64,000 bases of DNA. It comes from Escherichia coli. GTDB taxonomy: Bacteria; Pseudomonadota; Gammaproteobacteria; Enterobacterales; Enterobacteriaceae. Location: NCBI RefSeq assembly GCF_003334405.1, contig NZ_QOWM01000010.1. One strand, written 5' to 3'. The notes below the pieces were generated by a model, which ran no database searches, was not told where the DNA came from, and saw nothing but the letters and a program-made list of their open reading frames with translations. The number at the start of each line of letters is the position of its first letter. Position 1 is the stretch's first letter. Shown piece by piece: positions 1,281-32,637 of the stretch. A program made the position numbers and the translations under genes.

Positions 1281-1380
1281 TGCCTGATGCGCTACGCTTA
1301 TCAGGCCTACACCGCTCCTGCAATATATTGAATTCTTGCGGTTTCGTAGGCCGGATAAGGCGGTCACGCCGCATCCGGCA
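1281..1380. repeat. BIME: two REP palindromic units in inverted orientation
   Basis: tgcctgatgcgctacgcttatcaggcctac ... gtaggccggataaggcggtcacgccgcatccggca; canonical REP sequences between convergent ybaM and mscK. Confidence 0.85.
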
Positions 1381-1439
1381 TGAACAACGCGCACTTTGTT
1401 AGCAATCTCGGGGCAACTAAATGTTGCCCCCTTTCGTTT

Positions 1440-14312: not shown

Positions 14313-14666
14313 CTATTCGTCGATGATTGACTCGAATCCGCCATAGATCATTCGCTTGCCGTCAAACGGCATGGACTCGCCGAACTCTTTCATCCGTGGG
14401 TCCGACATCATCTTTTGATTAGCAGCGTCGCGGACCTCTTTTGAAGGGTATTCAATCCAGCTAAAGACAACCTCTTCATTCTCTTCCGCTTTCACCGCCA
14501 TACGAAAATCGGTCACTTTGCCATCCGGTACATCGCTGGCCCAGCATTCGACAATACGAAGCGCGCCAAACTCTTTAAACAATGGCGCAGCCTTAGCGGC
14601 CATTTCCCGATAGGCATCCTTTTTATCGGCAGGAACGGCAACCACAAAACCATCAACATACTTCAT
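14313..14666 (-). CDS. ybaA: DUF1428 family protein YbaA
   Basis: 117-aa ORF (MKYVDGFVVAVPADKKDAYREMAAKAAPLFKEFGA...). Confidence 0.88.
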   Translation of the reverse strand: MKYVDGFVVAVPADKKDAYREMAAKAAPLFKEFGALRIVECWASDVPDGKVTDFRMAVKAEENEEVVFSWIEYPSKEVRDAANQKMMSDPRMKEFGESMPFDGKRMIYGGFESIIDE

Positions 14667-14776
14667 CAGACATACCTCCGAAGCGTACTGCGCAGCCAGA
14701 CAATTCTTGCGACGTCAGTTGTGGTTAAAGTTTAGCCATGTTGGGATTTTTTGACGAAACGGTGGGAGGCAGAAAT

Positions 14777-14890
14777 GGGTGGGGGCCCTGCCAGCTACAT
14801 CCCGGCACACGCGTCATCTGCCTTGGCTGCTTCCTTCCGGACCTGACCTGGTAAACAGAGTAGCGTTGCGGGAGAACCAACAGAGCCCCC
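14777..14890 (-). ncRNA. ffs: 4.5S RNA (signal recognition particle RNA), ffs
   Basis: The reverse complement of 14777..14890 reads GGGGGCTCTGTTGGTTCTCCCGCAACGC...GGAAGGAAGCAGCCAAGGCAGATGACGCG...GGCAGGGCCCCCACCC, the 114-nt E. coli 4.5S RNA including the conserved SRP domain IV motif. Confidence 0.95.
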
Positions 14891-14966
14891 ATTGAGAGCG
14901 TTGAGAACCAACGCGCAGGCGCATTATCACTGCTGCCCCGGCTAATTGCAACCCATCGCGTGCCAG

Positions 14967-15356
14967 ATGCTGGTTTCTTGCGCAATGCGACTTCACTCGG
15001 GCGTTTTTCCAGATTATGCTGAAAAATTACCTCAGGAAGAAAAGATGGAAAAAGAAGATTCATTTCCCCAACGCGTCTGGCAAATCGTCGCCGCTATTCC
15101 CGAAGGCTATGTCACCACTTACGGTGATGTGGCGAAACTGGCGGGATCGCCCCGCGCCGCGCGCCAGGTGGGCGGTGTGTTAAAGCGTCTCCCTGAAGGC
15201 AGCACCTTACCCTGGCACCGGGTGGTTAATCGCCACGGCACAATTTCGCTAACCGGACCGGATTTACAGCGTCAGCGACAGGCATTACTGGCAGAAGGTG
15301 TGATGGTATCGGGAAGCGGGCAAATCGACTTGCAGCGTTATCGCTGGAACTACTAA
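14967..15356 (+). CDS. atl: DNA base-flipping protein Atl (YbaZ), alkyltransferase-like
   Basis: ORF 14946..15356; internal start MLVSCAMRLHSG gives 129 aa; MGMT-like helix-turn-helix region without the catalytic Cys. Confidence 0.85.
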   Translation: MLVSCAMRLHSGVFPDYAEKLPQEEKMEKEDSFPQRVWQIVAAIPEGYVTTYGDVAKLAGSPRAARQVGGVLKRLPEGSTLPWHRVVNRHGTISLTGPDLQRQRQALLAEGVMVSGSGQIDLQRYRWNY

Positions 15357-15377
15357 CCCTCTCCGGGCGGAGAGGGT
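15357..15377. terminator. Bidirectional hairpin between convergent atl and ybaY
   Basis: ccctctccg-ggc-ggagaggg perfect stem-loop directly after the atl stop and before the ybaY stop. Confidence 0.6.
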
Positions 15378-15386
15378 TAACGTCGC

Positions 15387-15959
15387 TTAATATTGCGTAG
15401 GAGCTGGAACTGCCGAAGACGGATTCACCTGAGTTGGTGAAGTCGAAGGTACGGTAGTCGTTGCGCCACCGCTGGCCTGAACCGGCACGGCGGTTTGCTG
15501 TACCGGCACCAATGTCAGGTCGGCTTTAGTTCCGCCCTGGTTGATCACCGGCTGAACGGTATCGGTGATAAATACCAGTTTGTCATTCACGGTAATCGCC
15601 GCACTCAACAGAATACGCGCGTTCGGCTGAACATCTGCCGGGTTAAATGGCAGAACAAAGCTGAATGGTGACTGTTTACCTTCAGTACGCACCGCTTTCT
15701 GCGCCAGCACTTTTGACGGTGCATCGGCTAACGACGCGTCAGAAAGTGTCACGGTCAGCACAGCATCAGGCGGCAGTGCGACTTTCTGACGGATCCAGAC
15801 GGTACCGGAGACATTCGGTTGCTGGATAGCTGGTTGTTGTGTTGCTGAAATAGACGTATTTGCAGCCGGTGCTGGCGTCTGAATATCCGCGCTTTTATCT
15901 GCGCAAGCCGCCAACGCAATCGCAACCGCTAAACCACTGGCCATGTGCACGAGTTTCAT
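15387..15959 (-). CDS. ybaY: Lipoprotein YbaY
   Basis: 190-aa ORF with lipoprotein signal (MKLVHMASGLAVAIALAAC) and Pro/Thr/Ala-rich low-complexity regions. Confidence 0.88.
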   Translation of the reverse strand: MKLVHMASGLAVAIALAACADKSADIQTPAPAANTSISATQQPAIQQPNVSGTVWIRQKVALPPDAVLTVTLSDASLADAPSKVLAQKAVRTEGKQSPFSFVLPFNPADVQPNARILLSAAITVNDKLVFITDTVQPVINQGGTKADLTLVPVQQTAVPVQASGGATTTVPSTSPTQVNPSSAVPAPTQY

Positions 15960-32450: not shown

Positions 32451-32637
32451 AGAGCTCTCTCTTAGTTTAATTTCCGCCAGGTAATCAGATGACACGACTG
32501 TGCTTCACGCCATCTATTAACATGTACGTCAGTATATGGGGATGTTTCCCCCACATTCAACGCCGAGAATAGAGGAAAAATTAAAGGGGAGATAAAATCC
32601 CCCCTTTTTGGTTAACTAATTGTATGGGAATGGTTAA

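What the first reader, a model, noticed from the sequence alone, without database searches (positions are those of the whole stretch)
14777..14890. 4.5S SRP RNA (ffs) lies under two spurious ORFs
The only RNA gene in the window sits in the ybaA-atl gap on the minus strand. The ORF track places a 112-aa ORF (14725..15063) and a 60-aa ORF (14814..14996) across it; both are artefacts. The sequence has the GGGGGC 5' end, the matching GCCCCCACCC 3' end and the conserved domain IV loop region.
Basis: partly seen in the sequence, partly recalled or inferred. Interest (0 to 1): 0.3.

Follow-up and report, generated by a model that had tools for sequence, protein, structure and literature searches.

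The report
E. coli 4.5S SRP RNA gene
This is the ordinary, long-known E. coli gene for the 4.5S RNA of the signal recognition particle, base-for-base identical to strain K-12, and the two reading frames drawn across it are not genes.

Summary
The finding is correct and ordinary. Window 14777..14890 (minus strand) is ffs, the 114-nt 4.5S RNA of the bacterial signal recognition particle.

- **Rfam match:** RF00169 hits 14786..14882(-) at 68.1 bits against a gathering score of 40, E 5.5e-13.
- **Fold:** the 114 nt form one hairpin with a 4-nt ACCC 3' overhang. G1-G10 pair with C101-C110.
- **Identity:** the intergenic region is 100% identical to E. coli K-12 MG1655 and occurs in 5425 of 5426 complete E. 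coli genomes.
- **Covariation:** in 13 gammaproteobacterial homologues, 93% of pair cells are paired, against 38-51% in slid controls. 17 pairs show compensatory changes, including the terminal helix outside the Rfam/RefSeq span.
- **Gene model:** a conserved TTGCAA-17-GATAAT promoter and a 22-26 nt leader with a hairpin fit published RNase P and RNase T processing.
- **ORFs:** both exist as mechanical ORFs. They have in-frame stops in E. albertii, Superficieibacter, Enterobacter or Citrobacter, while the RNA stays at least 97% identical. Neither has a meaningful family match.

One claim is wrong. ffs is not the only RNA gene in the window, because sraA sits at 32522..32617(+) with 106.7 bits.

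Novelty: already known. Interest: very low.

The parts
14777..14890 (-). Mature 4.5S RNA (ffs), 114 nt: a single long hairpin plus a 4-nt ACCC 3' overhang
   Evidence: Sequence and fold. 100% identical to K-12. The literature gives 114 nt and an ACCC overhang.
14786..14882 (-). Part covered by Rfam RF00169 and by the RefSeq 'ffs' feature (nt 9-105 of the mature RNA)
   Evidence: 68.1 bits against a gathering score of 40, E 5.5e-13. The RefSeq SRP_RNA feature maps to these coordinates.
14825..14848 (-). Domain IV / helix 8 core GGUCAGGUCCGGAAGGAAGCAGCC (nt 43-66). It is the Ffh M-domain binding site, with the GGAA tetraloop at 14835..14838.
   Evidence: Matches the conserved model core. The exact 24-mer was found in at least 120 genomes of several phyla. 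The binding role comes from the literature.
14881..14890 (-). 5' arm of the terminal (distal) helix, nt 1-10, GGGGGCUCUG
   Evidence: Pairs with nt 101-110 in the MFE and centroid folds. Compensatory changes occur in columns 5-7 and 11-12 of alignment A1.
14777..14790 (-). 3' arm of the terminal helix (nt 101-110, CAGGGCCCCC) plus the unpaired ACCC tail (14777..14780)
   Evidence: RNase T leaves a 4-nt ACCC overhang on 4.5S RNA.
14891..14916 (-). 5' leader of the primary transcript, removed by RNase P. It contains the hairpin GCGUUG(14914..14909)/CAACGC(14903..14898).
   Evidence: Fold of 14760..14914(-). In five enteric genomes the stem is invariant and the loop varies. The literature reports leader lengths of 22-26 nt and RNase P cleavage. 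The exact start site is inferred.
14923..14951 (-). Sigma-70 promoter: -35 TTGCAA (14951..14946), 17-nt spacer, -10 GATAAT (14928..14923)
   Evidence: Consensus scan, 9 of 12 matches. The -10 hexamer is conserved in all four enteric relatives and the visible part of the -35 in three of four, with variable spacers. Spacing fits the published -26 start.
14725..15063 (-). Mechanical 112-aa ORF across the promoter, leader and RNA: not a gene
   Evidence: Listed. In-frame stops in E. albertii and Superficieibacter, and no start at the homologous position in Enterobacter or Citrobacter. No NCBIfam hit. No RefSeq CDS.
14814..14996 (-). Mechanical 60-aa ORF (GTG start) across the promoter, leader and RNA: not a gene
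   Evidence: Listed. In-frame stops in Enterobacter, Citrobacter and Superficieibacter. The only family hit is noise: E 0.14, 11 bits. The exact sequence is not in the 15-billion-protein collection.
14313..14666 (-). Downstream neighbour ybaA (DUF1428 protein, 117 aa)
   Evidence: ORF. RefSeq annotation.
15045..15356 (+). Divergent upstream neighbour: MGMT-family alkyltransferase-like protein (atl/ybaZ), with PWHRV in place of PCHR
   Evidence: RefSeq annotation. TIGR00589 at 54 bits against a cut-off of 46.4. Translation.

Best explanation
Window 14777..14890 (minus strand) is ffs, the single-copy gene for the 4.5S RNA of E. coli, which is the RNA subunit of the bacterial signal recognition particle.

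Shown here:
- The sequence is identical to the K-12 gene.
- It matches the small SRP RNA covariance model over its full length.
- It folds into one roughly 50-bp hairpin. That pairing, including the terminal GGGGGCUCUG/CAGGGCCCCC helix, is kept by compensatory changes in other gammaproteobacteria.

Inferred from sequence plus published work:
- Transcription starts at a sigma-70 promoter (TTGCAA-17-GATAAT, 14951..14923), 22-26 nt upstream of G1.
- RNase P removes the leader, which carries a small conserved hairpin.
- Transcription ends shortly after the hairpin, around the conserved ACCCAUUU.
- RNase T trims the 3' end back to the ACCC overhang.

From the literature, not tested here:
- The tetraloop-proximal domain IV (14825..14848) binds the M domain of Ffh.
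- The GGAA tetraloop recruits the receptor FtsY.
- The Ffh-FtsY GTPase dimer then moves to the distal part of the hairpin, where GTP hydrolysis is triggered and the ribosome-nascent chain is handed to SecYEG.

The two ORFs are by-products of a G+C-rich, stop-poor RNA gene and are not translated genes.
For: - Rfam RF00169: 68.1 bits against a gathering score of 40, full-length model match, E 5.5e-13.
- MFE and centroid folds agree: -57 kcal/mol, z -3.15, all of nt 1-28 paired with the 3' arm, ACCC unpaired.
- 379 bp including the gene are 100% identical to K-12 MG1655 and other strains. The region occurs in 5425 of 5426 complete E. coli genomes, with a median of one copy. RefSeq labels it 'ffs: signal recognition particle sRNA small type'.
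- The 24-nt domain IV core is exactly conserved in at least 120 genomes from Proteobacteria, Actinomycetota, Firmicutes and others.
- Covariation in 13 gammaproteobacterial sequences: 93.1% of cells paired against 38-51% when the partners are slid. 17 pairs have double changes. 0 of 500 shuffles reach any observed measure. RNAalifold independently recovers most of the hairpin (34 pairs, dropping several terminal and inner pairs where gaps intervene), with 15 compensatory pairs.
- Promoter hexamers and the leader hairpin stem are conserved in enteric relatives while the spacer and loop vary.
- Literature: 114-nt 4.5S RNA and hairpin function; RNase P substrate with leader ends at about -22 to -26; RNase T leaves the ACCC overhang.
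- ORFs are not conserved and have no family.
Against: Nothing found argues against the identification. Some smaller points remain uncertain:
- The exact transcription start is not determined here. The literature gives 22, 24 or 26 nt and possible minor upstream starts.
- No canonical intrinsic terminator was detected downstream by the simple scan. Its one hit, at 14899..14885, overlaps the leader/5' end junction and is spurious. 3'-end formation is therefore the least documented step, and some read-through towards ybaA cannot be excluded.
- The covariation set is small (13 sequences, four of them near-identical enterics). MAFFT also misplaced gaps in the Vibrio rows.
- Binding to Ffh and FtsY was not testable.
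Confidence: 0.99

Rival explanations
1. The 112-aa ORF (14725..15063, minus), or the nested 60-aa ORF, is a real protein-coding gene that overlaps or replaces the RNA gene.
For: Both are open frames with ATG or GTG starts. The 112-aa product has been deposited as 'hypothetical protein' in a few E. coli and Shigella genome records.
Against: - The 112-aa frame has an in-frame stop in the sister species E. albertii and several in Superficieibacter. The start codon is absent in Enterobacter and Citrobacter.
- The 60-aa frame has stops in Enterobacter, Citrobacter and Superficieibacter.
- Amino-acid identity is confined to the part forced by the conserved RNA.
- No NCBIfam family.
- The cluster has only 9 members, against about 5400 genomes that carry the locus.
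- RefSeq/PGAP annotates no CDS.
- Each ORF would have to start upstream of the ffs promoter.
Confidence: 0.005
2. The hairpin is a decayed or partial ffs copy, for example an attachment-site remnant left by a mobile element, and not the working gene.
For: ffs is used as an integration site. A 2025 paper whose title reports a phage attachment site in ffs was listed but not read. Stutzerimonas urumqiensis carries a second, 5'-truncated copy 10.1 kb from the first, next to a tyrosine recombinase gene.
Against: - The copy here is full length, with intact 5' and 3' ends, promoter and leader.
- It is identical to the K-12 gene at the K-12 position between ybaA and atl.
- Only one SRP RNA hit exists in the window, and E. 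coli genomes carry a median of one copy.
- No integrase or repeat flanks it.
Confidence: 0.003
3. The structure acts mainly as a cis element, such as a terminator or attenuator controlling the downstream ybaA, and the SRP RNA resemblance is incidental.
For: ybaA lies 110 nt downstream on the same strand. The G+C-rich hairpin base is followed by ACCCAUUU, conserved in four enteric relatives.
Against: - A full-length covariance-model match is not incidental, nor is exact conservation of the Ffh-binding core across phyla.
- The locus has its own conserved promoter 26 nt upstream.
- The RNA is a stable, processed, essential product according to the literature.
- Termination at its own hairpin would be an additional property, not an alternative identity.
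Confidence: 0.002

Closest known systems
E. coli K-12 ffs / 4.5S RNA (Rfam RF00169, Bacteria_small_SRP)
   Same: Identical sequence over the gene and the whole ybaA-atl spacer. Same neighbours, strand relations, promoter and leader.
   Different: Nothing in the sequence differs. Only the annotation differs: RefSeq and Rfam mark 97 nt (14786..14882), while the mature RNA is 114 nt (14777..14890).
4.5S RNAs of Pseudomonas, Stutzerimonas, Vibrio, Haemophilus and Rheinheimera
   Same: Same single-hairpin architecture. Identical 24-nt domain IV core. A 4-nt 3' tail that contains CC.
   Different: The terminal and middle helices differ in sequence but keep pairing through compensatory changes, for example G3-C108 becoming U-G or U-A, and U9-A102 becoming C-G. 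The Vibrio hairpin is 6 nt shorter. Tails are UCCA or GCCC instead of ACCC.
Bacillus subtilis scRNA (large bacterial SRP RNA, 271 nt)
   Same: Same SRP role and the same domain IV core. The exact 24-mer also occurs in Bacillus and Paenibacillus genomes.
   Different: The Bacillus RNA is 271 nt, cut from a 354-nt precursor by RNase III-type cleavage (abstract of PMC1935012). It has an Alu domain (own knowledge). The E. coli RNA is the minimal hairpin, processed by RNase P and RNase T.
Other non-tRNA hairpin substrates of E. coli RNase P (phage P1/P7 C4 RNA, P4 CI RNA, phi80 M3 RNA)
   Same: Hairpin with a G+C-rich stem and a 3' overhang that contains CC, mimicking a tRNA acceptor stem. RNase P removes the 5' leader.
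   Different: Those are phage regulatory RNAs. This one is a housekeeping ribonucleoprotein subunit.

Membership tests
Bacterial small SRP RNA (Rfam RF00169; 4.5S RNA, ffs) | Covariance-model score at or above the curated gathering score, over the full model | tested here: met
   68.1 bits against 40, model positions 1-97 of 97, E 5.5e-13 for the window.
Bacterial small SRP RNA (Rfam RF00169; 4.5S RNA, ffs) | Domain IV / helix 8 core: a GNRA tetraloop (GGAA) on a short stem, flanked by the conserved internal-loop sequences GGUCAGG ... AGCAGCC | tested here: met
   Present at 14825..14848(-). It aligns to the invariant model core. The exact 24-mer is shared with at least 120 genomes across phyla.
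Bacterial small SRP RNA (Rfam RF00169; 4.5S RNA, ffs) | One extended hairpin that pairs the 5' and 3' ends, supported by covariation | tested here: met
   MFE equals centroid, with 42 pairs. 93.1% of cells paired against 38-51% in slid controls, 17 pairs with double changes, 0 of 500 shuffles as high. RNAalifold gives 15 compensatory pairs.
Bacterial small SRP RNA (Rfam RF00169; 4.5S RNA, ffs) | Small type: no Alu domain, about 100-115 nt | tested here: met
   The RNA is 114 nt. The best hit within SRP clan CL00003 is the small bacterial type, and lower-scoring clan hits were suppressed. RefSeq labels it 'small type'.
Bacterial small SRP RNA (Rfam RF00169; 4.5S RNA, ffs) | Orthology with the experimentally characterised K-12 gene: sequence and genomic position | tested here: met
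   100% identity over 379 bp, and the same ybaA / ffs / MGMT-family (atl) / ybaY / tesB order.
Bacterial small SRP RNA (Rfam RF00169; 4.5S RNA, ffs) | Processing signals: a 5' leader cleaved by RNase P, and a 3' ACCC overhang left by RNase T | not testable with these tools
   The sequence is consistent. The promoter sits 22-26 nt upstream, the leader hairpin is conserved, and ACCC is unpaired. The cleavage itself is known only from the literature.
Bacterial small SRP RNA (Rfam RF00169; 4.5S RNA, ffs) | Binds Ffh and stimulates the Ffh-FtsY GTPase cycle | not testable with these tools
   Literature only. The ffh and ftsY genes were not looked for in the window.
Protein-coding gene (the 112-aa and 60-aa ORFs) | Reading frame kept open, with a start codon, in related species | tested here: not met
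   In-frame stops or lost starts in E. albertii, Superficieibacter, Enterobacter and Citrobacter, while the RNA is 97-100% identical.
Protein-coding gene (the 112-aa and 60-aa ORFs) | Membership of a protein family, or consistent annotation as a CDS | tested here: not met
   No NCBIfam family for the 112-aa ORF, and only an 11-bit noise hit for the 60-aa ORF. No RefSeq CDS. Only a 9-member cluster of 'hypothetical protein' entries exists.

The most novel reading that the evidence does not exclude
The 5' leader may be more than a disposable extension. Its hairpin (GCGUUG/CAACGC) is conserved in enteric bacteria. In E. coli the leader also repeats exactly 10 nt of the mature 5' arm (GUUGGUUCUC, leader 14912..14903 and mature nt 10-19). 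That segment probably corresponds to the transient non-native 5' hairpin reported during co-transcriptional folding, though this mapping is my inference. The leader could act as a decoy or folding guide that steers co-transcriptional folding or RNase P recognition of 4.5S RNA. The evidence does not exclude this, but the 10-nt repeat itself is not conserved even in E. albertii, which argues that it is coincidental.
Probability: 0.04. Interest if true: 0.3.

Novelty: already known. Interest (0 to 1): 0.04.

Why it matters
It matters only as quality control.

- It confirms that a raw-sequence reader can place a known non-coding RNA to the base.
- It shows that mechanical ORFs over G+C-rich structured RNA genes are artefacts. 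One of them has leaked into public protein databases as a 'hypothetical protein'.
- It shows that the RefSeq/Rfam feature for ffs is 8-9 nt short at each end relative to the mature 114-nt RNA.

Nothing new about SRP biology follows from it.

Tried and rejected
- **Terminator scan.** The only terminator-like hit, at 14899..14885, straddles the leader and the 5' end of the RNA and is spurious. No canonical terminator was found downstream. 3'-end formation is therefore inferred from the hairpin plus the conserved ACCCAUUU and from the RNase T literature.
It was repeated on the plus strand.
- **MAFFT alignment A1** put the Vibrio and Haemophilus indels at the extreme 5' end instead of opposite the 3' gaps. 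Some terminal-helix cells are therefore scored as unpaired or gapped (columns 8-10 with 106-108), and RNAalifold dropped several terminal pairs. The counts are thus conservative. I did not build a custom covariance model to realign, because the conclusion was already clear.
- **Automatic trimming of all 114 homologues by MFE** gave ragged ends for alpha-proteobacterial and Gram-positive sequences. Only the 13 gammaproteobacterial 4.5S-type sequences were used for pair counting.
- **The 1998 PNAS paper on 3' trimming of small stable RNAs** (looked up under PMC19659, an id recalled from memory) is not held. PMC3439924 was used instead. One paper search failed on a disallowed term.
- **Protein-coding reading of the ORFs** was considered and rejected.
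- **Pseudogene or att-remnant reading** was considered and rejected.

Full report
**1. The observation**

- The minus strand of window 14777..14890 reads 5'-GGGGGCUCUGUUGGUUCUCCCGCAACGCUACUCUGUUUACCAGGUCAGGUCCGGAAGGAAGCAGCCAAGGCAGAUGACGCGUGUGCCGGGAUGUAGCUGGCAGGGCCCCCACCC-3', which is 114 nt.
- The mechanical ORF list contains a 112-aa ORF at 14725..15063(-) and a 60-aa ORF at 14814..14996(-), as stated.
- The flanking ORFs are ybaA at 14313..14666(-), a DUF1428 protein, and an MGMT-family gene whose RefSeq start is 15045(+).
- The MGMT-family product carries PWHRV where methyltransferases have PCHR. That is the hallmark of alkyltransferase-like (Atl) proteins (translation; the hallmark is established knowledge).

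**2.

- cmscan of the whole window against Rfam 15 gives Bacteria_small_SRP (RF00169) at 14786..14882(-).
- The score is 68.1 bits against a gathering score of 40, with model positions 1-97 of 97 matched and E 5.5e-13. The result was reproduced on the local region.
- The model covers nt 9-105 of the RNA.

**3. Fold and terminal helix**

- The 114 nt fold into one hairpin. MFE and centroid structures agree at -57 kcal/mol, with z -3.15 against dinucleotide shuffles.
- G1-C110 to G10-C101 and beyond are paired. The last four bases, ACCC, are free.
- To test the helix independently, I scanned one genome per species for the exact 24-nt domain IV core. It was found in at least 120 genomes, including Proteobacteria, Actinomycetota, Firmicutes, Planctomycetota and Dehalococcoidia.
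- I aligned thirteen gammaproteobacterial 4.5S-type homologues: four enterics, four pseudomonads, Rheinheimera, Haemophilus, two Vibrio and one MAG.
- Results with the E. coli fold projected onto that alignment:

| Measure | Observed | Control |
|---|---|---|
| Pair cells that are standard pairs | 93.1% | 38-51% when 3' partners are slid by 1-3 columns |
| Pairs showing changes on both sides | 17 of 42 | shuffled mean 9.6 |
| Shuffles reaching any observed measure | 0 of 500 | n/a |

- Within the terminal helix, columns 5/112, 6/111, 7/110, 11/105 and 12/104 show 5, 2, 1, 3 and 4 double changes.
- RNAalifold on the same alignment recovers most of the hairpin (34 pairs), with 15 compensatory pairs. 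It drops several terminal and inner pairs where gaps intervene.
- The set is small and partly redundant, and MAFFT misplaced some gaps, so these counts are conservative.

**4. Identity**

- The spacer 14667..15045 is 100% identical to E. coli K-12 MG1655 and many other strains.
- It occurs in 5425 of 5426 complete E. coli genomes, with a median of one copy.
- In the K-12 RefSeq record the order is amtB, tesB, ybaY, MGMT-family protein, ffs ('signal recognition particle sRNA small type'), ybaA, pdeB, ylaC.
- The RefSeq ffs feature maps to window 14786..14882. This is the Rfam extent, 8-9 nt short of the mature RNA at each end.
- The literature gives 114 nt for the mature RNA (bioRxiv 10.1101/378745). 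It describes nt 1-9 and 102/103-114 as a distal extension that stabilises the native fold but is dispensable for GTPase activation.

**5. Gene model**

- *Promoter.* A sigma-70 match, TTGCAA-17-GATAAT, lies at 14951..14923(-). In E. albertii, Enterobacter, Superficieibacter and Citrobacter the -10 hexamer is kept in all four and the visible part of the -35 in three (Citrobacter has one change), while the spacer varies.
- *Leader length.* Published values are 22, 23-24 and, from RNA-seq, mainly 26 nt, with possible minor starts near -127 and -153 (PMC5499578). A start at -26 is window 14916, which is 7 nt after the -10 box.
- *Leader structure.* The leader folds into a 6-bp hairpin, GCGUUG/CAACGC, followed by UCUCAAU. 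The stem and tail are invariant and the loop varies among the five enteric genomes.
- *5' processing.* RNase P removes the leader (PMC7049720; PMC5499578).
- *3' processing.* RNase T is reported to stop at CC and leave the 4-nt ACCC overhang of 4.5S RNA (PMC3439924). This matches the unpaired tail at 14780..14777.
- *Termination.* The site is inferred. ACCCAUUU is conserved in the enterics, but the simple scan finds no canonical terminator.

**6. Mechanism (literature, not tested here)**

- The Ffh M domain binds the tetraloop-proximal domain IV.
- The FtsY NG domain first contacts the GGAA tetraloop.
- The Ffh-FtsY NG dimer then relocates to the distal part of the hairpin. There GTP hydrolysis is activated and the ribosome-nascent chain is passed to SecYEG (PMC4737761).

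**7. The ORFs**

I translated the homologous frames in four relatives whose RNA is 97-100% identical.

- *112-aa frame:* it has an in-frame stop in E. albertii, located in the leader. It has several stops in Superficieibacter and no start codon at the homologous position in Enterobacter or Citrobacter.
- *60-aa frame:* it has stops in Enterobacter, Citrobacter and Superficieibacter.
- Amino-acid identity is confined to the stretch dictated by the RNA.
- Neither ORF has a meaningful NCBIfam match.
- RefSeq annotates no CDS there.
- The 112-aa product exists in public databases only as a 9-member cluster of 'hypothetical protein' entries from older annotations: E. coli P12b, S88 and O25b:H4, and Shigella dysenteriae. 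The cluster also includes a 51-aa truncated E. albertii version.

**8.

- ffs is not the only RNA gene in the window. Rfam sraA (RF02029) matches 32522..32617(+) at 106.7 bits against a gathering score of 56.
- The match lies in the clpX-lon spacer, where RefSeq annotates no feature.
- There are no tRNA or tmRNA genes.

**9. Verdict**

This is a textbook gene, correctly identified to the base. Novelty is 'already known' and interest is minimal. The only residual curiosity is the conserved leader hairpin and the 10-nt exact repeat between leader and mature RNA. The repeat is not conserved in E. albertii and is probably coincidental.

Noticed in passing
window 32522..32617 (+): A second RNA gene. 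Rfam sraA (RF02029) matches at 106.7 bits against a gathering score of 56, over the full model, in the clpX-lon spacer. It lies on the strand opposite ffs, so presumably opposite clpX and lon too (inferred from K-12 gene order, not read from an annotation). The RefSeq records checked list no feature there.
   Followed up: partly
window 53061..53184 (+): Sub-threshold but full-length match to Rfam V_AS5 (RF02818): 52.5 bits against a gathering score of 96, E 1.3e-8 for the window. It lies in the spacer between dxs (51161..53023) and an aldo-keto reductase ORF that is probably yajO (53131..54177), on their strand. It may be a conserved structured 5'-UTR or 3'-UTR element. I do not know of a described E. 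coli RNA at this position.
   Followed up: partly
window 14903..14912 and 14872..14881: An exact 10-nt direct repeat, GUUGGUUCUC on the RNA strand. One copy is in the ffs leader and one is at nt 10-19 of the mature RNA. AACGCU follows directly in the leader and after a CCGC insert in the mature RNA. The leader loop differs in E. albertii, so the repeat is not conserved.
   Followed up: partly
window 14786..14882 versus 14777..14890: The RefSeq/PGAP ffs feature copies the Rfam model extent (97 nt). It omits 8 nt at the 5' end and 9 nt at the 3' end of the mature 114-nt RNA.
   Followed up: yes
window 14946..15356 (+): The start of the atl (MGMT-family) gene is ambiguous. RefSeq uses ATG 15045 (103 aa), but the frame is open from TTG 14946 and ATG 14967. 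A 129-aa version from 14967 would begin 16 nt upstream of the ffs -35 box (14951..14946). The protein has PWHRV instead of the catalytic PCHR.
   Followed up: partly
window 15354..15391 (-): A perfect G+C-rich hairpin, AACCCUCUCCGCCCGGAGAGGGUU, picked up as a weak rnk_leader-like hit (E 0.36). It lies between the convergent ends of atl (15356) and ybaY (15387), so it is probably a bidirectional terminator.
   Followed up: no
window 1349..1385 (+): Sub-threshold naRNA4 (RF02564) match: 35.4 bits against a gathering score of 59.5. It is most likely a REP-type palindromic element.
   Followed up: no
L108:2829-2943 and L109:832-945 (Stutzerimonas urumqiensis NZ_RBZQ01000004.1): Two ffs copies lie 10,148 bp apart and are identical over 99 nt. 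The second lacks the native 5' end. A 304-aa tyrosine recombinase ORF (L108:3544-4458) sits about 650 nt downstream of the first copy. This looks like a genomic island integrated into ffs, in line with the title of a 2025 paper (listed, not read) that reports ffs as a phage attachment site.
   Followed up: partly
public protein databases (cluster of P0001-P0009): The spurious 112-aa ORF over ffs is deposited as 'hypothetical protein' in several GenBank/UniRef entries. One related E. albertii fragment is even named 'Transposase' in UniRef. Two E. coli plasmid records also carry a copy of the ffs spacer.
   Followed up: no
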